From UHGV virus genome UHGV-0254771: a stretch of 13,970 nucleotides of DNA; one strand, written 5' to 3'. The notes below the pieces were generated by a model. The model worked only from the letters and a program-made list of their open reading frames with translations, had not been told where the DNA came from and ran no database searches. Position numbers and translations under genes: made by a program. Of the stretch, positions 2,627 through 12,043 are shown piece by piece (position 1 is the first letter of the stretch; each line of letters opens with the position of its first letter). This DNA comes from a virus.

Positions 2627-4023
2627 AATAAACGCTCCGTTTTACTGCCCGACATGCGGTTATTGCTGTATCTGCGCGGATTGCCCGGCGTCATGGGTGT
2701 GGAAAGAACCCGGGCACTCTCCTGGTCCACAGGCAGAAAATGTCCGTTATGAAAACGCCGGTAAATGGTCCCGAGCGTGCCATTACGCTGTTTCGTGATG
2801 TTGATTTCTGCTATGCCTCTGGCCTGAGTTTCCGGGTTGTATACCTCATCCCTGTAAAGCATCAGAATGATGTCGGCATCCGCCTCGATTTCCCCGGAGT
2901 TTTTCAGGTCCGAGTTCATTGGGCGTTTATTGGGTCTGGATTCCACGCCGCGGGAGAGCTGGCTCAGAGCAATCAGCGGAAAACCGCCGGATTTTGCCAG
3001 GCTTTTAAGTCCCTTTGAGATTTCCCCCACCGCAAGGTCGTGACGCCCCGTGCTGCGGGTTTTAATCAGGCCGAGGTAATCGACCACCACCAGCGCCGTT
3101 TCCGGGTGTTTCATCCGGTGGTGCTTCGTGGTTGCACATATCTCATCAATGGTCAGGTTTGCCTGGTCCACCATCCAGATATTACGCCCCGTCATTCGTC
3201 CCACGCCCTGCGAGAAACGCGCCCAGTCTTCATCTTCAAAACGGGCAACAGACTTAAGACGGGATACCGGCATTCCACCGGCAGCAGACACCATACGTTC
3301 ACCAATCTGGATGTTCGCCATCTCCATGGTGAACAGAAGCACGCCATGCCCCTGCTCAGTCACCTTGTCGATGATGTCCAGCGCAAGTTCGGTTTTCCCC
3401 ATCGAAGGACGGGCGGCAATGAATACCAGGTCTCCGGGCTCCATACCGCCCGTTTTTGCGTCCAGTTCATCAATACCGGTCATCAGCGCCCTGGATTTCT
3501 CCAGTCCCTGATTGCGGCATTCAACACGGTCGACCACTTCCGGAAGGACATCATCAATGTGAACCGGCTGAATGACGCCCTTTCCGGTCGACAGTGAGGC
3601 CATCATGTTCTGCGCATCCTTCAGGGCATCCTCGGCTGCTTCACAGGTATACGCATCACGTAAATTCTGTAATGCTTCAGTCAGTGTTTTTTCTGCATCG
3701 CGCAGTGCGGCATTGCGCCGCAACGCTGCGACATAGTGCTCCAGTGAAGACTTCACCCAGGTTTTGCGTCCGGTGTCGGTAATCACCGGGGCAAGTTCCG
3801 GCATCTCATTGCACAGCAGTACGGGGTCAATGACGCCGGATATGCGAGCCTGTCTGCAAATCCCCGCGTAAATATCCCGGTACTGACGCACAAAAAATAC
3901 ATCCGCCGGAAGTGTGGCCAGAATATCCATCACTTCCGGATCGGCCCCACGCAGAAAAAACGCACCGATGACAGCGCCTTCCAGGTCATCGTTACGCCAT
4001 GCCGGGGTGTTCTGGCTGGTCAT
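2623..4023 (-). CDS. DnaB-family replicative DNA helicase (phage-encoded)
   Basis: 466-aa ORF with Walker A ...ARPSMGKTELAL... and the overall layout of DnaB-like hexameric helicases. GGAGG lies about 9 nt upstream of the ATG. Start overlaps the upstream loader gene stop (ATGA at 4020..4023). Confidence 0.85.
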   Translation of the reverse strand: MTSQNTPAWRNDDLEGAVIGAFFLRGADPEVMDILATLPADVFFVRQYRDIYAGICRQARISGVIDPVLLCNEMPELAPVITDTGRKTWVKSSLEHYVAALRRNAALRDAEKTLTEALQNLRDAYTCEAAEDALKDAQNMMASLSTGKGVIQPVHIDDVLPEVVDRVECRNQGLEKSRALMTGIDELDAKTGGMEPGDLVFIAARPSMGKTELALDIIDKVTEQGHGVLLFTMEMANIQIGERMVSAAGGMPVSRLKSVARFEDEDWARFSQGVGRMTGRNIWMVDQANLTIDEICATTKHHRMKHPETALVVVDYLGLIKTRSTGRHDLAVGEISKGLKSLAKSGGFPLIALSQLSRGVESRPNKRPMNSDLKNSGEIEADADIILMLYRDEVYNPETQARGIAEINITKQRNGTLGTIYRRFHNGHFLPVDQESARVLSTPMTPGNPRRYSNNRMSGSKTERLF

Positions 4024-4928
4024 GCGGCAACACCTCCGATACGAGAACGGTAGCTGGGCCAGTTAAACGACAACCAGTTGCGCCCGCCATCGGTGATCCT
4101 GTCGGCAATCCGGGGACTGATGAACGCCCACAATTCTTCCGGTGAAAGGTTGCTGATCAGGATAGTTGGCAAAATACCCTCATACCGGGCATTGATAATT
4201 TCCTGCAAAATGGCCATTTCAGCCGCACTGCCAAACTGAACGCCGACTTCGTCGACAATCAGCAAATCCAGTGACGCATAATGCTCAATGACGTCATCCG
4301 CTGTTTTTTCACTGTCATTCCGCCAGCAGTTTTTCACAGCCCGGGTAAGGCGCATCACGTCGGTGATCTCCACACTGGCCAGATAGTTACGGATGATGTG
4401 TTTTGCCATTGATACCGCCAGATGATTTTTCCCGGTACCGCAACTGCCGGTCATAACAAGACTGGTACCGTTCTCCAGCATATCTGGCCAGTTCTCCGCA
4501 TAGCGGCGACAGGCCGCAAGATTTCTGGCTGCGTCAGGATTAACCTCCAGATAATTATCAAACTCGCAGTCCCGAAAACGCAGAGCAATTCCGGCGTTAT
4601 CAGTCAGTTCTTCCGCCTTGAGGGACGACAGTTCCATGGTCAAATCACTGGCCTCAGCGATCAAGCAGTCAGGGCAGCATGAAATTTTTTCTCTGTCCTC
4701 GCCATTACGATCGATCCACACCAGTATATGCGTACGATATTTACCGTGTTTTTCGCAATATCCGCGACCTTCACGCATCAGGCAGGAACGATAAGGCCAT
4801 GGCTTTTCGCCCTTCTGAGCAAATGCAATCTCTGCCCGTAACTCATCCATTTCTGCCCGTAACTCATCCATTCGCGCCTGTAGTCTTGTTTGTTTCTCAC
4901 GTTGGTCAATCGTCATCATCGCTGTCAC
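4020..4928 (-). CDS. DnaC/IstB-like AAA+ helicase loader with an N-terminal coiled-coil and Cys-rich (zinc-finger-like) region
   Basis: 302-aa ORF. Walker A GSCGTGKNHLA and Walker B DLLIVDEVG are typical of DnaC-like loaders. N-terminal region has C...C...H and CCPDC spacing. Contains a perfect 21-bp in-frame tandem duplication (MDELRAE x2). Confidence 0.85.
   Translation of the reverse strand: MTAMMTIDQREKQTRLQARMDELRAEMDELRAEIAFAQKGEKPWPYRSCLMREGRGYCEKHGKYRTHILVWIDRNGEDREKISCCPDCLIAEASDLTMELSSLKAEELTDNAGIALRFRDCEFDNYLEVNPDAARNLAACRRYAENWPDMLENGTSLVMTGSCGTGKNHLAVSMAKHIIRNYLASVEITDVMRLTRAVKNCWRNDSEKTADDVIEHYASLDLLIVDEVGVQFGSAAEMAILQEIINARYEGILPTILISNLSPEELWAFISPRIADRITDGGRNWLSFNWPSYRSRIGGVAA
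4831..4872. repeat. Perfect 21-bp tandem duplication (TCTGCCCGTAACTCATCCATT x2) inside the loader gene
   Basis: Positions 4831..4851 and 4852..4872 are identical. On the coding strand this is an in-frame 7-codon duplication giving MDELRAEMDELRAE. Confidence 0.9.
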
Positions 4929-4929
4929 C

Positions 4930-5922
4930 TCAGAATGTCAATTTGTTACTGGATTTACCGAATTTGTCAGACATGGCTCCCAGGCCAGCCAGGACATCGA
5001 CCTGTCGCTGTCGCCCACCTCCGTGAGCGGCTGGCTGTTGCCAGTAATCTTCGAAGTGACGATCGGGTCCAAAGAACGTCGCAGCCTGCTTCACGAACTG
5101 TGTGCCGGTATTTCCTGTAGCACGTACCCAGGCGGCATACCGCTTCACGCCATCAAGCATGGTCTCCGGTTTTATTCCCTCCCTGATACGGGCTTTCCAG
5201 GCTTTGAAGGCTGCTGACTTGGAATTGCCACCAGCACGTTTGGGATATTCCTGCCAGGCCTGTTCAAATTCCGGTGAATATTCCTGTCGGGCAGAACGCG
5301 CTGGCGCAGACGCGTCAGCGGATGCATCAATAGTGTTTTTAGTCTCCGTTGTAATCTCTGTAGTAATCTCTGTATTTGTATCAACATTCGGCGTATCCCC
5401 TGTTCCGTTATGACGTCGGGGGGTGTTCCGTTTTAACGTAATAGCTGTATCGCTGATTGCATTATTGCTGTTACTTTCTGGCGAAACAGAAGAAGGTGTG
5501 GTGATGGCCGCAATTGCCTGTGGGTTGATCCCGACAAACAAAATATTGCTGCATTTCACCCCATCGAGCATTTCCACCGTGCGTAAATCCAGAGTAATAA
5601 ACCCTGCATCGCGCAGACGCTTCAGCGCATCTGCGGTTTCCCTTTTCCCGAAACCAAACTGCTCAGCAAACGCCTGGTAGCTTCTTTGCAGTTTGTCGCC
5701 CTGAAAACGCTTGCGATATCCCAGCAACGCTCCGGTGTGCTCATCCCTGACCTCTGTCGGGCGGTACCAGTAAACGATCTCTGAAAGCAGAGCGATAGCC
5801 GTCGCATCCGGACGCCCACTGGGTAGTCGAATATATTTCCACCAGTTCGCAGGTGTAACATTGCCGGAAATATTAATTTGACCAATAGCCATAACTTCCG
5901 GTGTGGTGGCGTAACGGCTCAT
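4930..5922 (-). CDS. Replication initiator / replisome organiser (lambda O-like role), 330 aa
   Basis: Sits immediately upstream of the loader and helicase genes in the same operon. N-terminal winged-helix-like region, low-complexity linker (TEITTEITTE, ASADASA) and a conserved-looking basic C-terminal domain. Contains internal DNA repeats consistent with an origin embedded in the gene, as in lambda O. Family assignment is from position and general features. Confidence 0.65.
   Translation of the reverse strand: MSRYATTPEVMAIGQINISGNVTPANWWKYIRLPSGRPDATAIALLSEIVYWYRPTEVRDEHTGALLGYRKRFQGDKLQRSYQAFAEQFGFGKRETADALKRLRDAGFITLDLRTVEMLDGVKCSNILFVGINPQAIAAITTPSSVSPESNSNNAISDTAITLKRNTPRRHNGTGDTPNVDTNTEITTEITTETKNTIDASADASAPARSARQEYSPEFEQAWQEYPKRAGGNSKSAAFKAWKARIREGIKPETMLDGVKRYAAWVRATGNTGTQFVKQAATFFGPDRHFEDYWQQPAAHGGGRQRQVDVLAGLGAMSDKFGKSSNKLTF
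5351..5374. repeat. Two tandem 12-bp repeats (GTAATCTCTGTA x2) within the initiator gene; candidate origin iterons
   Basis: 5351..5362 and 5363..5374 are identical direct repeats; the GACGCGTC palindrome lies about 40 bp upstream (5309..5316). Lambda-type origins lie inside the O gene as tandem iterons. Only two copies are seen here, so this is tentative. Confidence 0.4.
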
Positions 5923-8413: not shown

Positions 8414-8707
8414 ATGAAAGTTCAGGCCGTTGGTTTATTCTGGTTTCGCGATGCGATTCAGTATCATGAGCTCAAAAATATTTTTACTGATGCTGATGTG
8501 CTCTCCGACAGTTACACCGAGTGGAAACACGACGCTGAAAAATTGATTAAGCGTGTCGAAAGAAGCGGGCAACGAGTTATTAAAGTTGAAGCGGATACAG
8601 CCGAGTTCATCACCTGGTGTACAAGCGAAGGCATTGGAATCAATGCCGAAGGTAGAATGCAGTTCGCATCCTTTAAGGCTTACCAACAACTTCTCAGCGA
8701 ACGCTAA
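8414..8707 (+). CDS. Hypothetical protein (97 aa) encoded convergently to cro, inside the early-right operon
   Basis: Textbook RBS AAAGGAGGTTCGAC-ATG (AGGAGG at 8402..8407). Balanced charged composition and E. coli-like codon choice. Followed by a GC-rich hairpin (8714..8738) and T-rich tail. A minus-strand ORF (8435..8767) overlaps it entirely but looks like a shadow frame. Confidence 0.6.
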   Translation: MKVQAVGLFWFRDAIQYHELKNIFTDADVLSDSYTEWKHDAEKLIKRVERSGQRVIKVEADTAEFITWCTSEGIGINAEGRMQFASFKAYQQLLSER

Positions 8708-9050: not shown

Positions 9051-9183
9051 AACAAAGCACCAACATTAACTTTATAAATCAAGAATACATCAAGTTTAAA
9101 TTAACATGCAAGTTGCAAAAGGATCGAATACACTAAAATCAAGTAAAGATTTATCCTTGTAAAGAAACCCACAGGATTTGGTC
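9051..9183. promoter_or_regulatory. Divergent immunity control region (pR/pRM-type promoters and operators) between cro and cI
   Basis: 133-bp AT-rich intergenic region between divergent HTH genes. ATCAAG recurs at 9078..9083, 9089..9094 and 9138..9143 with TTATAA/TTTAAA cores; the same half-site occurs as a palindrome near the pL-like promoter. Exact -35/-10 boxes could not be assigned by eye. Confidence 0.6.
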
Positions 9184-9873
9184 ATGAAGAACGTCAAAAA
9201 CACGGAAAATCGAATAGCCGCGATGCTGAAAGCAAAAGGATGGACTCAGGCTCAACTGGCCCGCAAGTTAGGTGTGAGTGCGCAATCAGTGCAGTACTGG
9301 ACAACAGGAAAAACATTTCCACGGAGTGATAAGCTCGCGCATTTATCCGAGATTAGCGGTTATCCACAATCCTGGTTCTTAGGTGAAGACTCCTCACCAA
9401 CCTTTTCCTCGCAAGAGAAACACCAGACAAGAACAGATAGCGTCGTGTTTAATGTCCTTGATGTTGAGTTTAGTTGCGGTGATGGAACTCATGTCCGTGG
9501 TGACTTGATAGATGTAGTGCGCTCAATAGAACTTGATCCTGAATATGCCCGACGCCTTGTTGGAAATCGGGCATTCAAAAATATAGAAATAGGTAACGCC
9601 AGAGGAGACAGTATGGCTCCCACAATCTCACCTGGCGACCTTCTTTTTCTTGATAAGACAGTAACTTATTTTGATGGCGATGGCATTTATGCATTTTGTT
9701 TTGATGGAGAATGCTACGTGAAAAGACTTCAAAAAATTGGAAGCAAAATCATGGTGTTATCTGATAACCCCAATTATCAACCATGGAGCATCGAAAAAGA
9801 GGGGTTAGCTCTGCTTTATATCCAGTCTAAAGTGATCTCATCAGTACCATTCAATATAAACAGATTTGGTTAG
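9184..9873 (+). CDS. cI: CI-type prophage repressor: N-terminal XRE-family HTH plus C-terminal S24 (LexA-like) autopeptidase domain
   Basis: HTH ...WTQAQLARKLGVSAQSVQYW...; C-terminal GDSMAPT (Ser nucleophile) and downstream VKRL (Lys) match the S24 autocleavage dyad. ATG at 9184 has AGGA about 7 nt upstream (track starts at a TTG, 9178). Followed by a strong terminator. Symbol is by analogy. Confidence 0.9.
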   Translation: MKNVKNTENRIAAMLKAKGWTQAQLARKLGVSAQSVQYWTTGKTFPRSDKLAHLSEISGYPQSWFLGEDSSPTFSSQEKHQTRTDSVVFNVLDVEFSCGDGTHVRGDLIDVVRSIELDPEYARRLVGNRAFKNIEIGNARGDSMAPTISPGDLLFLDKTVTYFDGDGIYAFCFDGECYVKRLQKIGSKIMVLSDNPNYQPWSIEKEGLALLYIQSKVISSVPFNINRFG

Positions 9874-9885
9874 TCTTTGATTTTA

Positions 9886-9906
9886 ACGGGCTTTGCCCGT
9901 TTTTTT
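9886..9906 (+). terminator. Intrinsic terminator downstream of the repressor gene
   Basis: ACGGGC (9886..9891), TTT loop, GCCCGT (9895..9900), followed by six T (9901..9906), starting 13 bp after the cI stop codon. Confidence 0.8.
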
Positions 9907-9936: not shown

Positions 9937-9988
9937 TTGACAGCCTATTTCTCAAAGCATAATATCGCGCCATCAATTATAACTTGAT
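9937..9988 (+). promoter_or_regulatory. pL-like early-left promoter with a 17-bp palindromic operator
   Basis: TTGACA at 9937..9942; -10 candidates CATAAT (9958..9963, 15-nt spacer) or TAATAT (9960..9965, 17-nt spacer). Palindrome ATCAATTATAACTTGAT at 9972..9988 shares the ATCAA(G/T) half-site with the cro-cI region. Sits between the cI terminator and the first early-left gene. Confidence 0.5.
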
Positions 9989-10018: not shown

Positions 10019-10567
10019 ATGAAGACACTAAAAGCAACTCCAGAAACAACTAATTTTATCAACTGCGGCTGTGTTACGCTTGAAGGCTTAGAACTTGATT
10101 CCTTTGCATTAAATATTGCAAATTTGCTAAGTGCTGTACGCACATTCCATCTTCTGGATTGTGCTCGCTCAAAGGAACTGGGCATTGAGGTAATGGAATT
10201 TATCCATGAATATGCCCTATCTGCGGCTTCTCCTGCACAACAAAAACAATCCTTCCCTAAAAGCTGGCTGGTTAACCTTCGCACCCAACGCGAAGCCTGC
10301 GGCTTAACAACCGCCGAACTCGCCAGGCTGCTCGATCTCGATGAAGAAATCATCATTCAGTGGGAGAGCGGAGAGTATGAACCAACCATCAGTATGCTTA
10401 TCCCACTGGCAAATATTCTTGGCTGCGATCCGATGTGGCTGTTAACTGGCGAGGTTACTCCTCCGGAGCAACCAAAAAGTGAGGAGCAGCAACACCATGA
10501 CGCATCTCAACAAGTTTGCCCCTTATCTCGCGAAGCTCTTCTGCGGAAGAACCAATACCAATGGTGA
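10019..10567 (+). CDS. Hypothetical protein (182 aa) with a C-terminal XRE-family helix-turn-helix domain; first gene after the pL-like promoter
   Basis: C-terminal region ...LRTQREACGLTTAELARLLDLDEEIIIQWESGEYEPTISMLIPLANILGCDPMWLLTGE is a clear HTH_3/XRE-type motif. N-terminal 85 aa are unrecognised. SD is weak (GGTGGG 3 nt from the ATG). The 3' end overlaps two alternative small ORFs, so the C-terminal extent is uncertain. Confidence 0.55.
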   Translation: MKTLKATPETTNFINCGCVTLEGLELDSFALNIANLLSAVRTFHLLDCARSKELGIEVMEFIHEYALSAASPAQQKQSFPKSWLVNLRTQREACGLTTAELARLLDLDEEIIIQWESGEYEPTISMLIPLANILGCDPMWLLTGEVTPPEQPKSEEQQHHDASQQVCPLSREALLRKNQYQW

Positions 10568-10695: not shown

Positions 10696-11061
10696 ATGAA
10701 AAAGTTCGAAAACATAACTGTTCTCCATGTTGATGACTTTGATTATACAAACCCGGAACTTCTCCCGGAGGTTGTAAAGGCAATAGATGTTGCCGATATA
10801 GTGATTAGAGAAAAGAGAATTGTCAAAAACAGGCTCGCATGCACTTCAGGAGCAATGACAGAAACAACCTCACAGCAAGATAATTACGAAGGCATTTGCC
10901 TGGAGCCTGATTCATTTGCAATAAATGTTTATCATTTATTGCATGCAACACAGGTATTACATATGTCCAGTAATCACGAAACGAAAACACTCGGCAGCGA
11001 AATTCTGAATTTTGCATGTGAGTATACAAAAGCTGCTGCCGAAAAAGAATTAGCGCAATAA
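10696..11061 (+). CDS. Hypothetical protein (121 aa), AT-rich accessory gene
   Basis: ORF with GAGGAA about 5 nt upstream of the ATG. No motif recognised. Its start overlaps the start of a minus-strand ORF at a CATG palindrome. Confidence 0.55.
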   Translation: MKKFENITVLHVDDFDYTNPELLPEVVKAIDVADIVIREKRIVKNRLACTSGAMTETTSQQDNYEGICLEPDSFAINVYHLLHATQVLHMSSNHETKTLGSEILNFACEYTKAAAEKELAQ

Positions 11062-11139
11062 CAACAAATATGCCCTGAACGTTTATTGCGGTTTTATCGC
11101 CGGGGATTGTTACAACCTTAATCCACAGGAGGCTTTATT

Positions 11140-11253
11140 GTGACTTTTATAAAGAATATGGCATCACACAAGACCGCCTGCCTTATTGCACAATACGGTG
11201 AAAATTACATGCATATTGCCTGCTTATTTCTGCGTAAAGCATACGGGAGATAA
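11140..11253 (+). CDS. Candidate small ORF (37 codons, GTG start), below the ORF-track size cutoff and translationally coupled to the next gene
   Basis: AGGAGG at 11127..11132 followed 7 nt later by GTG (11140); reading frame VTFIKNMASHKTACLIAQYGENYMHIACLFLRKAYGR with stop TAA at 11251..11253, 2 nt before the ATG at 11256. The SD of the downstream gene lies inside its 3' end. No homology evidence. Confidence 0.3.
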   Translation: MTFIKNMASHKTACLIAQYGENYMHIACLFLRKAYGR

Positions 11254-11255
11254 TA

Positions 11256-11456
11256 ATGCATCAGAAAACAGCAGAACACGAACAAACCAGAGTATTGCTG
11301 ACCATCAAAAACGGGAAAGTAATATTCATTCGCCATGTTCATGACGATGAACTTGTAGGAACTCTTTCAACATTCCTGTTTATTGCAGAAAGGGCAGGAT
11401 ATGACGTTATTGCACCAGCAGATGAAGATGAAGATGAAGATGAAGATGAGGAATAA
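11256..11456 (+). CDS. Small protein (66 aa) with a poly-acidic C-terminal tail (DEDEDEDEDEE)
   Basis: ORF with GGGAGA 5 nt upstream of the ATG. C-terminus is encoded by a (GATGAA)n hexamer repeat. Compact N-terminal domain of about 50 aa. No family recognised. Confidence 0.55.
   Translation: MHQKTAEHEQTRVLLTIKNGKVIFIRHVHDDELVGTLSTFLFIAERAGYDVIAPADEDEDEDEDEE
11421..11450. repeat. Hexanucleotide tandem repeat (GATGAA x4 plus GATGAG) encoding the acidic tail
   Basis: 11421..11444 is four perfect GATGAA units, followed by GATGAG (11445..11450). In-frame, so copy-number change would lengthen or shorten the tail without a frameshift. Confidence 0.9.
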
Positions 11457-11461
11457 ATATC

Positions 11462-12043
11462 ATGCAATACGATGAATTCCAGGCTGAAGCAACAGCCAAT
11501 GGTATACGAACTGGCAGTATGACGATTGATTATCACGACGCCATACGTCGTCTGGATGCCGGAGAATTCGATACTCCTAATGTGCGAGGTTTACGTATCC
11601 TTCAGTGTCTGGCGCAAGCCGACGAAGCAGGATTACTGGGTAAACTTCCGGTTGAGATGAAGGTTGCTCAGTGGCGATGGTTGTATGTGACGACATTCAT
11701 CAACGAAGAAGAAGACAAGAACGGCACAATTGATATCCTGAATGAACACGGAACAACTGAACACGCCGTGGTATATAACGGGATGTATGGGTTTATGACG
11801 ATATATCCCGGCCCCATTCGATTTGCCTTACAACAGTATATTGAATGGAATTTAATTCAAAAATACGGCGAAGCTGAAGGAATGGGAAGAGCGCTGTTTC
11901 TTTATCAGAAAATGCTCACTACTTCCCCTGATAAAGGTTTCATTCTTTCAGATATGGGTCGAGAAGGGCTTGAAATCCTTCTGGATGAAATTATTAACGA
12001 AATGAATACTCATGGCATGCAATCCGAAACAGATATTAAGTAA
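11462..12043 (+). CDS. Hypothetical protein (193 aa)
   Basis: ORF starting 5 nt after the previous stop, with GAGGAA upstream. Protein-like composition; no motif recognised. Confidence 0.6.
   Translation: MQYDEFQAEATANGIRTGSMTIDYHDAIRRLDAGEFDTPNVRGLRILQCLAQADEAGLLGKLPVEMKVAQWRWLYVTTFINEEEDKNGTIDILNEHGTTEHAVVYNGMYGFMTIYPGPIRFALQQYIEWNLIQKYGEAEGMGRALFLYQKMLTTSPDKGFILSDMGREGLEILLDEIINEMNTHGMQSETDIK

What the first reader, a model, noticed from the sequence alone, without database searches (positions are those of the whole stretch)
11062..11456. Small acidic-tailed protein encoded by a hexamer repeat, preceded by a coupled 37-codon ORF
The 66-aa protein (11256..11456) ends in DEDEDEDEDEE, encoded by (GATGAA)4-GATGAG (11421..11450). 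A short poly-acidic tail on a tiny early phage protein resembles DNA-mimic or protein-docking tails, and the repeat offers an easy route to in-frame length variation. Just upstream, an AGGAGG-N7-GTG small ORF (11140..11253) stops 2 nt before the 66-aa gene's ATG and contains its SD, suggesting translational coupling or a leader peptide. Both were visible only by reading the intergenic sequence.
Basis: partly seen in the sequence, partly recalled or inferred. Interest (0 to 1): 0.55.

Follow-up and report, generated by a model that had tools for sequence, protein, structure and literature searches.

The report
Unannotated microprotein gene heading prophage cassette
In an E. coli prophage, a real but almost never annotated 37-codon gene sits 2 bases upstream of a small phage protein whose Asp-Glu tail grows and shrinks by repeat slippage; what either protein does is unknown, and nothing supports a DNA-mimic role.

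Summary
The window is a lambdoid E. coli prophage and the finding lies in its early-left operon.

- **The 66-aa gene.** It is a genuine, already annotated hypothetical gene (PHROG 340, phage phiP27 L07 family). It has a confident beta-hairpin plus helix core and a low-confidence tail.
- **The acidic tail.** It is clade-specific. (GATGAA)n varies from 1 to 7 copies (60-72 aa) among relatives, even on identical flanking haplotypes, and always in frame. Distant homologues lack the repeat but mostly carry short polar, mildly acidic tails. No fold or sequence match supports a DNA mimic or an SSB-type docking tail.
- **The 37-codon ORF.** This is the more interesting part. It is a conserved coding gene (pS 0.73 against pN 0.14 versus phiP27). 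It belongs to a 35-38-aa family found in many temperate enterobacterial phages, is absent from Pfam, PHROGs and NCBIfam, and PGAP left it uncalled in the three genomes checked. It always abuts the next gene (-11 to +5 nt), whichever gene that is, and carries that gene's Shine-Dalgarno.
- **A new upstream element.** A 4-bp RNA hairpin with compensatory changes (11089-11102) precedes the cassette.

Functions remain unknown. Interest is moderate.

The parts
10696..11061 (+). Upstream gene of the operon, a phiP27 L08-like protein of 121 aa. The leader of the cassette starts after its stop codon.
   Evidence: Full-length match to phrog_5451 (positions 1-121 of 121, E 2.8e-83). PGAP calls only the C-terminal 68 codons, 10855-11061.
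11081..11113 (+). Conserved leader motif. It contains a 4-bp hairpin (stem 11089-11092 CGGT with 11099-11102 GCCG, loop 11093-11098 TTTATC) followed by GGGGAT.
   Evidence: In 26 diverse leaders 94% of cells are paired. All 4 pairs show compensatory double changes, 0 of 500 shuffles reach the observed covariation score or the percentage of paired cells, and slid registers give at most 61% pairing. RNAalifold picks the same helix on its own. The covariance model gives one hit in the window (36.8 bits, E 1e-9) and one hit per locus in 90 of 100 small-ORF loci. G-U wobble pairs point to an RNA on the + strand.
11127..11132 (+). Shine-Dalgarno AGGAGG of the small ORF, 7 nt before its GTG start.
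   Evidence: Read directly from the sequence. The relatives inspected also carry a purine-rich, Shine-Dalgarno-like stretch before the start, strong in some and weak in others.
11140..11253 (+). 37-codon microprotein gene, unannotated, GTG start. Peptide: MTFIKNMASHKTACLIAQYGENYMHIACLFLRKAYGR.
   Evidence: The ORF is intact in 86 of the 88 sequences examined (window plus 87 loci); phi467 and an IS-disrupted locus are the exceptions. Among 14 nucleotide variants, variable sites by codon position are 13/4/23. Against phiP27, pS is 0.73 and pN is 0.14. Family-wide there are 64 nucleotide variants and 42 peptides of 35-38 aa, with per-site differences of 0.37/0.25/0.56 at codon positions 1/2/3. 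There is no hit in Pfam, PHROGs, NCBIfam or PADLOC.
11245..11249 (+). Shine-Dalgarno GGGAG of the 66-aa gene, lying inside the Gly-Arg codons that end the small ORF. The stop TAA is at 11251-11253 and the ATG at 11256.
   Evidence: Read directly from the sequence. Stop-to-start spacing is -11 to +5 nt in 41 of 42 distinct small-ORF contexts, whatever the downstream gene. The exception (+186) has no called ORF in between.
11256..11456 (+). 66-aa protein of the phiP27 L07 / PHROG 340 family: a beta-hairpin plus helix core (about residues 12-54) and a low-confidence acidic tail.
   Evidence: phrog_340 E 1.2e-23. 529 homologues of about 54-100 aa, all unnamed, in Enterobacteriaceae prophages. AlphaFold2 mean pLDDT 84.8, strands 13-18 and 21-27, helix 37-46, tail pLDDT about 57.
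11421..11450 (+). (GATGAA)4-GATGAG microsatellite encoding (Asp-Glu)5.
   Evidence: TRF: period 6, 5.0 copies, 100% matches. Copy number is 1-7 in relatives.
11448..11452 (+). GAGGA, the Shine-Dalgarno of the next gene. It is formed by the last repeat unit (GAT GAG GAA).
   Evidence: Read directly from the sequence. The next ATG is at 11462, 5 nt after the stop codon.
11462..12043 (+). Next coupled gene, a phiP27 L06-like protein of 193 aa with unknown function.
   Evidence: phrog_1515 E 3e-90. The order L07 then L06 is conserved in phiP27 and ASU11.

Best explanation
The region is the head of a mosaic accessory-gene cassette in the early-left (PL-side) operon of a lambdoid E. coli prophage. 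In order it contains the following.

1. **A short RNA hairpin.** It is maintained by compensatory changes and its role is unknown.
2. **A 37-codon gene for a helical, basic microprotein.** It has a strong Shine-Dalgarno and is under purifying selection.
3. **An L07/PHROG-340 family gene, 2 nt later.** Its own Shine-Dalgarno lies in the last codons of the microprotein gene. Ribosomes finishing the small ORF are therefore placed to initiate on it (translational coupling). The same arrangement links it to the next gene, L06.

The 66-aa protein has a small beta-beta-alpha core that defines the family. Its tail is probably disordered. In this clade the tail is (Asp-Glu)n, written by a (GATGAA)n microsatellite. 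The array expands and contracts by slipped-strand mispairing and cannot shift the frame, so it is a tolerated or at most tuning length polymorphism, not an on/off switch.

**Shown:** the coordinates, homology, selection signature, repeat polymorphism, covariation, and conserved stop/start geometry.

**Inferred:** actual translation, dependence of downstream translation on the small ORF, and disorder of the tail.

**Unknown:** the biochemical targets. My best guess is that both products are small protein-binding regulators or host-takeover factors typical of this operon.
For: **Context.** The window is 100% identical to E. coli S4 over the 1.5 kb searched. The flanking order is cI-like repressor, HTH gene, L08, L07, L06, DUF4752, Ea22, xis, int. 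A terminator-like site and a promoter-like site lie between cI and the HTH gene.

**L07 family.** PHROG 340, phiP27 L07 and ASU11 homologues, and 529 homologues in the large protein database. AlphaFold2 gives a confident core and a low-confidence tail.

**Repeat.** TRF detects the array. Copy number is 1-7, and 7 of 40 identical-flank haplotypes carry several copy numbers.

**Small ORF.** Codon-position bias is 13/4/23, and dN/dS is about 0.06-0.23 in the comparisons where it could be computed. Family-wide differences are 0.37/0.25/0.56 at positions 1/2/3. Lengths are 35, 37 or 38 codons, and the length differences lie next to the conserved Gly in the middle of the peptide. ATG is the start in most relatives. 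Homologues are found by tblastn, without any imposed pattern, in Fels-1, ENT39118, SaltyDalty, Fraca, AsXd-1, a Klebsiella phage and phi467.

**Coupling geometry.** It is conserved with different downstream genes.

**Hairpin.**
Against: - There is no expression or translation data for this locus.
- The invariant C-terminus (R/K)KAYG-X-stop overlaps the downstream Shine-Dalgarno, so part of the peptide conservation could be a nucleotide constraint.
- RNA folding energies of the leader and of the junction are no better than shuffled sequence (z about 0 and -1.2). The hairpin rests on covariation alone, and no start-site-sequestering structure supports obligatory coupling.
- AlphaFold2 models the microprotein as one long helix at only moderate confidence (pLDDT 76) from a 4-sequence alignment.
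- L07 is frameshifted in some lineages, such as O157:H7 PV15-279 and the variants P0021, P0025 and P0026. It is therefore dispensable there.
- Most L07-family tails are net negative (79 of 99), so some role for negative charge cannot be excluded.
Confidence: 0.7

Rival explanations
1. One reading: the poly-acidic tail is the functional part. It would act as a DNA or nucleic-acid mimic, or as a docking tail that blocks host restriction, defence or DNA enzymes. Repeat number would tune or diversify that activity.
For: The gene lies in the early-left operon, where lambda ral and similar host-takeover genes sit (general knowledge). Tails of distant family members are mostly net negative: mean -1.7, with 79 of 99 negative. 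Copy number is variable.
Confidence: 0.12
2. The 37-codon ORF is a regulatory leader or arrest peptide, of the TnaC, SpeFL or SecM type. On this view its translation or stalling at the conserved C-terminus gates expression of the whole downstream cassette, perhaps together with the hairpin. The free peptide would have no function of its own.
For: It always sits at the head of the cassette and abuts the next gene, whichever gene that is. The (R/K)KAYG-X-stop end is invariant and lies over the downstream Shine-Dalgarno. Its size resembles SpeFL, which I recall as about 34 aa. A conserved RNA hairpin lies upstream.
Against: The whole peptide is conserved, including MTFIKD and the central A..L...G. 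No terminator-like structure or U-run follows the hairpin or the ORF. No stable alternative structure is predicted. No known arrest motif is recognisable.
Confidence: 0.15
3. The 66-aa protein is an antitoxin-like or toxin-neutralising protein: a folded N-terminal domain with a disordered acidic tail that wraps a partner. The partner would be related to the ParE-like-domain protein that often follows L07 genes. In this window it would be an orphan, perhaps aimed at host toxins.
For: A 72-aa protein with the Pfam ParE_like domain (E 1.6e-21) lies downstream of L07 homologues, with nothing of the five families in between, in about 31 of 133 contexts. It overlaps the preceding gene by 29 nt in most of the contexts listed. 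Type II antitoxins typically have a disordered, acidic C-terminal tail (general knowledge).
Against: No ParE-like gene lies downstream in the window. The ParE-like gene occurs without L07 in 18 contexts, and L07 occurs without it in about 80. No RHH, AbrB or HTH fold is detected, and there is no PADLOC hit.
Confidence: 0.06
4. The small ORF is not translated. On this view its conservation reflects an RNA or DNA element, or recent horizontal spread.
For: Gene callers almost never predict it: only 4 entries in a database of 5.8 billion proteins. There is no family in any library searched.
Against: Third-position excess and pS far above pN. Length changes occur only in whole codons. A start codon preceded by a purine-rich, Shine-Dalgarno-like stretch is seen in the relatives inspected. 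Amino-acid identity of 51-64% persists in distant phages of other genera. No Rfam match.
Confidence: 0.05

Closest known systems
Phage phiP27 L07 / PHROG 340 (uncharacterised small early-left proteins of temperate enterobacterial phages)
   Same: Clear sequence homology: phrog_340 E 1.2e-23, and about 50% identity to phiP27 L07. Same size, same position between L08 and L06 homologues, and the same core motif RVLLTIxNGxVI...TF...AxxAGYxV.
   Different: phiP27, ASU11, phi467 and Fels-1 members have no Asp-Glu repeat. Only the E. coli clade that includes the window carries the (GATGAA)n tail.
Translationally coupled gene pairs and small upstream ORFs in phage operons
   Same: The stop codon is 2 nt before the next ATG. 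The downstream Shine-Dalgarno lies inside the upstream ORF. The arrangement repeats along the operon (small ORF to L07 to L06) and is conserved across phages.
   Different: The upstream ORF is itself a conserved 35-38-aa protein family under purifying selection, not a variable spacer ORF. It is portable between different downstream genes.
Regulatory leader or arrest peptides (TnaC, SpeFL, SecM)
   Same: Small size, position ahead of an operon segment, and a strongly conserved C-terminal end next to the stop codon.
   Different: No attenuator, terminator or Rho-dependent logic can be identified. There is no known arrest motif, and stalling is untested.
Acidic-tailed or DNA-mimic phage proteins (T7 Ocr, ArdA, T7 gp2.5 and SSB C-terminal tails)
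   Same: A run of acidic residues at the C-terminus of a small early phage protein.
   Different: The core is not acidic, is not an OB fold, and has no structural match. The tail lacks a terminal hydrophobic residue, is not conserved in the family, and varies in length among near-identical prophages.
Simple-sequence contingency loci (phase-variable genes)
   Same: A perfect tandem repeat inside a coding region, with copy-number polymorphism among very close relatives.
   Different: The unit is 6 nt, so every change stays in frame. Only tail length changes, not gene on/off state.
Lambda nut sites (boxA/boxB), for the leader hairpin
   Same: A small conserved stem-loop in an early-operon transcript, apparently maintained at the RNA level.
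   Different: The stem is 4 bp with a 6-nt loop, not 5 bp with a GNRA-like pentaloop. No boxA was noticed. It lies about 1.1 kb downstream of the promoter-like site. There is a single copy, with none on the PR side in the window.

Membership tests
PHROG 340 / phiP27 L07 family | Significant profile match across the core domain | tested here: met
   phrog_340 E 1.2e-23, residues 2-65. tblastn to phiP27 L07 gives E 2e-13. 529 homologues in a profile search.
PHROG 340 / phiP27 L07 family | Location in the early-left operon next to L08-like and L06-like genes | tested here: met
   The gene order in the window matches phiP27 and ASU11.
DNA-mimic anti-restriction proteins (Ocr / ArdA type) | Acidic residues spread over a folded, DNA-shaped surface | tested here: not met
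   By my count of the sequence, residues 1-55 hold about 7 D/E and 6 K/R. The negative charge sits in the low-confidence tail (pLDDT about 57).
DNA-mimic anti-restriction proteins (Ocr / ArdA type) | Sequence or fold similarity to a known mimic | tested here: not met
DNA-mimic anti-restriction proteins (Ocr / ArdA type) | Inhibition of restriction or other DNA-binding enzymes | not testable with these tools
   Needs plating assays on restricting hosts and binding assays.
SSB / gp2.5-type acidic docking tail | OB-fold DNA-binding core with an acidic tail ending in a hydrophobic or aromatic residue | tested here: not met
   The model is a beta-hairpin plus a helix. The protein ends ...DEDEE.
Translationally coupled gene pair | Stop and start codons overlapping or within a few nt, with the downstream Shine-Dalgarno inside the upstream ORF | tested here: met
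   TAA at 11251-11253, ATG at 11256, GGGAG at 11245-11249. Spacing is -11 to +5 nt in 41 of 42 distinct contexts.
Translationally coupled gene pair | Downstream translation depends on upstream translation | not testable with these tools
   Needs start-codon or stop-codon mutants with a translational reporter. The predicted junction structure is weak (z -1.2).
Regulatory leader / arrest peptide | An attenuator, terminator or Rho-dependent element controlled by the uORF | tested here: inconclusive
   No terminator-like site lies between 11062 and 11456. Folding energy is no better than shuffles. Rho dependence could not be tested.
Regulatory leader / arrest peptide | Sequence-specific ribosome stalling | not testable with these tools
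   The conserved (R/K)KAYG-X-stop end is only a lead.
Phase-variable contingency locus | Repeat copy number polymorphic among close relatives | tested here: met
   Copies 1 to 7 occur in 36, 24, 5, 5, 1, 4 and 1 loci respectively. Seven identical-flank haplotypes carry several copy numbers.
Phase-variable contingency locus | Repeat changes switch the reading frame or the promoter on and off | tested here: not met
   The unit is 6 nt, and all 76 matched variants stay in frame.
Lambda-type nut site (for the hairpin) | boxB-type 5-bp stem with pentaloop, boxA, and copies in both early operons | tested here: not met
   The stem is 4 bp with a 6-nt loop. The window has a single covariance-model hit and none on the minus-strand PR operon.
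Type II antitoxin | An adjacent cognate toxin gene | tested here: not met
   No ParE-like gene lies downstream in the window. L07 and the ParE-like gene occur independently of each other in many contexts.

The most novel reading that the evidence does not exclude
The hairpin and the 35-38-codon gene together would form a previously undescribed portable 'cassette head' of temperate enterobacterial phages. Two versions fit the evidence. In one, the microprotein is a trans-acting effector comparable in importance to lambda CIII or Kil. In the other, it is a ligand- or state-sensing arrest peptide that gates a whole block of accessory genes, including the L07 family and a ParE-like protein. The element is in 340 of 5,426 complete E. 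coli genomes, including Stx phages, yet is missing from annotation and from every family library searched.
Probability: 0.25. Interest if true: 0.65.

Novelty: new variant of a known kind. Interest (0 to 1): 0.4.

Why it matters
The acidic tail on its own is a minor curiosity: a slippage-prone, in-frame microsatellite in a hypothetical prophage gene.

The more useful result is the small ORF. A conserved microprotein gene is missed by PGAP in the genomes checked and is absent from PHROGs, Pfam and NCBIfam. It heads an accessory-gene cassette in many temperate phages of Escherichia, Salmonella, Klebsiella, Cronobacter and Aeromonas, including Shiga-toxin phages and Fels-1. A covarying RNA hairpin that is not in Rfam precedes it.

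If the microprotein or the hairpin controls expression of the cassette, or acts on the host, it would add a regulator to the much-studied lambdoid early-left operon. It is also a concrete example of the small-gene blind spot in prophage annotation.

Tried and rejected
- **Family libraries.** Pfam, NCBIfam and PADLOC scans of the 66-aa protein, the small ORF and the neighbouring genes gave nothing for the first two. PHROGs gave only 'unknown function' families.
- **Anti-repressor lead.** PHROGs also gave weaker hits of the 66-aa core to the C-terminal part of two 'anti-repressor' families (phrog_4792 E 1.5e-6, phrog_2379 E 1e-3). I could not substantiate this. hhalign against the window's own Rha/Ant proteins and against the ORF6N anti-repressors of ENT39118 and SaltyDalty was negative. 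tblastn with two different family members found no fused protein in 50,697 phage records.
- **Spurious hit.** A 1,950-aa hit (P0027) from the representative search is a repetitive surface-type protein that scores by summing 10 weak stretches. I dismissed it.
- **Genome-contig scan.** The scan with the family alignment confirmed no locus.
- **Small ORF versus known small prophage proteins.** There is no similarity to YdfA, YdfB, YdfC, DicB or YdfD of the Qin prophage. A weak resemblance to one TPR repeat of designed proteins (E 0.026) is only a hint of a helical hairpin.
- **Rfam.** Nothing in or near the leader.
- **Other frames of the repeat.** The poly-Ser ORF on the minus strand (11339-11536) and the MKMK frame (11383-11475) have no homology support and were rejected.
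- **Literature.** One search (phiP27 / L07) returned nothing relevant.
- **RNA thermodynamics.** Folding of the leader and of the junction is not distinguishable from shuffled sequence.
Full report
**Context**

Over the 1.5 kb searched, the window is 100% identical to the chromosome of E. coli strain S4. That stretch occurs in 324 of 5,426 complete E. coli genomes. The RefSeq annotation and my ORF and PHROG scans show a lambdoid prophage.

- On the minus strand lies the early-right operon: a cro-like gene, two Rha/Ant genes, replication genes, a DnaB-type helicase, RusA and Q.
- On the plus strand lie a cI-like S24 repressor (9178-9873), a terminator-like site (9885-9901) and a promoter-like site (9937-9965).
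- The early-left operon follows: an HTH protein, an L08-like gene, the finding, an L06-like gene, a MarR-like gene, DUF4752 and ead/Ea22 genes. Xis and int follow beyond the window, in the genome record.

**Check of the observation**

- AGGAGG lies at 11127-11132, then 7 nt, then GTG at 11140.
- The 37-codon ORF ends with TAA at 11251-11253. TA follows, then ATG at 11256.
- GGGAG at 11245-11249 lies inside the last two sense codons of the small ORF.
- The 66-aa ORF ends PADEDEDEDEDEE, from (GATGAA)4-GATGAG at 11421-11450.
- TRF reports period 6, 5.0 copies and 100% identity.

There is one correction. The 66-aa gene is annotated in RefSeq (WP_089633249.1). Only the small ORF is not.

**The 66-aa protein**

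It belongs to PHROG 340 (E 1.2e-23) and is the homologue of L07 of Shiga-toxin phage phiP27.

A profile search finds 529 relatives, all about 54-100 aa. All are 'hypothetical', from prophages of Escherichia, Klebsiella, Salmonella, Raoultella and Shigella. A full HMMER scan of 1.8 billion representatives adds only more small proteins.

The only functional hint is a weak PHROG match of the core to the C-terminal part of two 'anti-repressor' families. I could not substantiate it.

**The acidic tail**

Among 80 independent IMG/VR loci, 76 matched the extraction pattern. Their GATGAA copy numbers, and the resulting protein lengths, are:

| GATGAA copies | Loci | Protein length (aa) |
|---|---|---|
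| 1 | 36 | 60 |
| 2 | 24 | 62 |
| 3 | 5 | 64 |
| 4 | 5 | 66 |
| 5 | 1 | 68 |
| 6 | 4 | 70 |
| 7 | 1 | 72 |

Of 40 haplotypes identical over the core plus 150 nt on each side, seven carry more than one copy number. RefSeq genomes show 62-, 64-, 66- and 68-aa forms. This is recurrent slipped-strand mispairing. Because the unit is 6 nt it can never switch the gene off.

The last unit is GAT GAG GAA, which forms the Shine-Dalgarno (GAGGA, 11448-11452) of the next gene. That gene starts 5 nt after the stop codon.

Distant homologues have no Asp-Glu repeat. phiP27 and ASU11 end in PPAKEQTL, phi467 in ...INSNTNS, and Fels-1 in ...EEISNVG.

Across 99 homologues without the repeat, the tail has these properties:

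- The region after the AGYxV motif has a median length of 17 residues, is polar and is low in complexity.
- Its mean net charge is -1.7, and 79 of the 99 are negative.
- Many end in (D/N)S(N/D)T(H/N)S.

A short, mildly acidic, presumably disordered tail is therefore a family trait. The long Asp-Glu run is a clade-specific exaggeration of it.

By my count of the sequence, the first 55 residues are about neutral. The protein ends in EE. It has no structural relative. I see no support for a DNA mimic or an SSB-type docking tail, although a charge-dependent role is not excluded.

**The 37-codon ORF**

This is the more substantial result.

- **Conservation near the window.** The ORF is intact in 86 of the 88 sequences examined (the window plus 87 loci). 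The exceptions are phi467, where a shorter copy sits further upstream, and one locus with an IS insertion.
- **Selection.** Among 14 nucleotide variants, variable sites fall 13/4/23 on codon positions 1/2/3. Against phiP27, pS is 0.73 and pN is 0.14.
- **Wider family, found without an imposed pattern.** tblastn finds homologues in Fels-1, Cronobacter ENT39118, Aeromonas AsXd-1, a Klebsiella prophage, and the phages SaltyDalty, Fraca and EKP1.
- **Wider family, pattern scan.** A degenerate pattern scan of IMG/VR gave 111 further stretches.
- **Diversity.** In total there are 64 nucleotide variants and 42 peptides, all of 35-38 residues. Mean pairwise differences are 0.37/0.25/0.56 at codon positions 1/2/3. 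The pattern fixed both ends of the peptide, so this statistic was computed on the 27 inner codons only.
- **Shape of the peptide.** The consensus is MTFIKDKAAYKTAxL..G..Y..IAxLFLRKAYG-X. Length differences lie next to the conserved Gly in the middle of the peptide, which suggests a helical hairpin. AlphaFold2, from a shallow alignment, gives one long helix at pLDDT 76. A weak TPR-like resemblance agrees with helix-turn-helix packing but proves nothing.
- **Annotation status.** The family is absent from Pfam, PHROGs, NCBIfam and PADLOC. It has only 4 entries in a database of 5.8 billion proteins. PGAP did not call it in the three genomes I inspected. Some GenBank phage records list a hypothetical protein over it.
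- **Prevalence.** Leader plus ORF occur in 340 of 5,426 complete E. coli genomes, including O157:H7, O55:H7 and O111:H8 strains.

**Relation between the two genes**

The small ORF is not specific to the 66-aa gene.

In 41 of 42 distinct contexts the next gene starts at -11 to +5 nt from its stop codon, and in the cases I inspected the Shine-Dalgarno lies in its last codons. The exception is at +186 nt, with no called ORF in between.

The next gene differs between phages:

- L07 itself in the window and in phiP27.
- A 119-aa protein (phrog_1737) followed by L07, in E. coli prophages whose small ORF is nearly identical to the window's.
- A 67-75-aa protein (phrog_8959), then phrog_1737, then L07, in Fels-1, EKP1 and the Klebsiella prophage. 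SaltyDalty and Fraca have the first two but no L07.

HMM annotation of 133 distinct contexts gives a fixed order with optional members: small ORF, [p8959], [p1737], [L07], [ParE-like domain protein], [L06]. L07 is present within 3.5 kb in 111 of them, although the sampling is biased toward L07.

The small ORF therefore heads a mosaic cassette. The geometry for translational coupling is a conserved property of that head.

**A conserved hairpin upstream**

I aligned 26 diverse leaders. They show a 4-bp stem with a 6-nt loop, followed by GGGGAT. In the window this is 11089-11092 pairing with 11099-11102.

- 94% of cells are paired.
- All four pairs show compensatory double changes (CG/UA, GC/AU, CG/GC, CG/UA) as well as G-U wobbles.
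- 0 of 500 shuffles reach the observed covariation score or the percentage of paired cells.
- Slid registers give at most 61% pairing.
- RNAalifold finds the same helix independently.

A covariance model finds exactly one copy in the window and none in the PR operon. It finds one copy, on the same strand and upstream, in 90 of 100 small-ORF loci. In ENT39118-type phages the copy lies upstream of an S24-peptidase-like gene that overlaps the small ORF.

It is not a terminator, because no U-run follows it. It is not nut-like, given the single copy, the different shape, and its distance of about 1.1 kb from the promoter-like site. It is not in Rfam. Its thermodynamic stability is unremarkable, so the case rests on covariation. 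Its function is unknown. Protein binding, mRNA processing or mRNA stabilisation are all possible.

**Verdict**

The repeat-driven length variation and the reality of the upstream ORF are shown. Coupling is strongly suggested but untested. The DNA-mimic or docking idea is unsupported.

What is really there has three parts:

- an ordinary hypothetical prophage gene with a slippage-prone tail;
- an uncatalogued, widely conserved microprotein gene just upstream of it;
- a covarying RNA hairpin ahead of both, the three together forming the head of an accessory cassette.

Functions remain unknown. I rate the finding of moderate interest.

Noticed in passing
window 11081-11113 (+): A conserved leader hairpin (4-bp stem, 6-nt loop, then GGGGAT) with compensatory changes in all four pairs. 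The window holds a single copy. It precedes the small-ORF cassette in 90 of 100 related loci and is not in Rfam.
   Followed up: yes
window 10696-11061 (+), compared with 10019-10567 (+): The full 121-aa ORF matches phrog_5451 end to end, but PGAP annotates only its last 68 codons (10855-11061). Its C-terminal half is homologous to the N-terminal domain of the adjacent HTH protein: both hit phrog_4587, phrog_5451 and phrog_4836.
   Followed up: partly
window 4831-4872 (gene on the minus strand, 4020-4928): A perfect 21-nt tandem duplication (TRF score 84). It duplicates the heptapeptide MDELRAE near the N-terminus of the 302-aa protein that RefSeq annotates as 'ATP-binding protein'.
   Followed up: no
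window 5343-5374 (gene on the minus strand, 4930-5922): A 12-nt repeat of 2.7 copies inside the 330-aa protein that RefSeq annotates as hypothetical. It encodes TEITTEITTE. These could be origin iterons, but I did not examine them.
   Followed up: no
L019 (IMG/VR contig 2627853868_000001), about 2240-2390: Foreign sequence that looks like an insertion-sequence end replaces the first third of the small ORF, while the L07 gene downstream stays intact.
   Followed up: no
L208 1373-1556 (E. coli O157:H7 PV15-279), and the Stx2a phages EH1846 and EH2201: The L07 homologue is a frameshifted pseudogene in these lineages, while the small ORF and its leader are retained.
   Followed up: partly
L093 791-1009 (SaltyDalty), L205 2207-2428, L206 2420-2638, L207 2160-2381: A 72-73-aa protein with the Pfam ParE_like toxin domain (E 1.6e-21) is a frequent member of the same cassette. 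Its start overlaps the preceding gene by 29 nt in most contexts, and a 130-168-aa gene follows with a 4-nt overlap. This could be a toxin-antitoxin-like pair.
   Followed up: partly
L205 1828-2235 (Aeromonas phage AsXd-1), and many L07-family proteins (P0028, P0034, P0035, P0039): A shared C-terminal ending, (D/N)S(N/D)T(H/N)S, appears on the tails of many L07-family proteins. It also appears on the phrog_1737 protein of AsXd-1. This suggests a common C-terminal tag or docking motif within the cassette.
   Followed up: no
L088 1618-2004 (ENT39118), with similar arrangements in L099, L144, L155, L175, L178, L189 and L205 (AsXd-1): In these phages a protein of about 128 aa with only an S24-peptidase-like domain (no HTH) ends in an ATGA overlap with the start of the small ORF. 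The leader hairpin lies upstream of that gene instead.
   Followed up: partly
window 8414-8707 (+): A 97-aa gene (phrog_4753, unknown function) lies in the opposite orientation between the Rha/Ant gene and the cro-like gene of the early-right operon. The placement is moron-like.
   Followed up: no
L091 (phage EKP1, OM284015.1): This phage is recorded as infecting Elizabethkingia, yet it carries an enterobacterial-type cassette: the small ORF (64% identity), phrog_8959, phrog_1737 and an L07 homologue. The host assignment may deserve a check.
   Followed up: no
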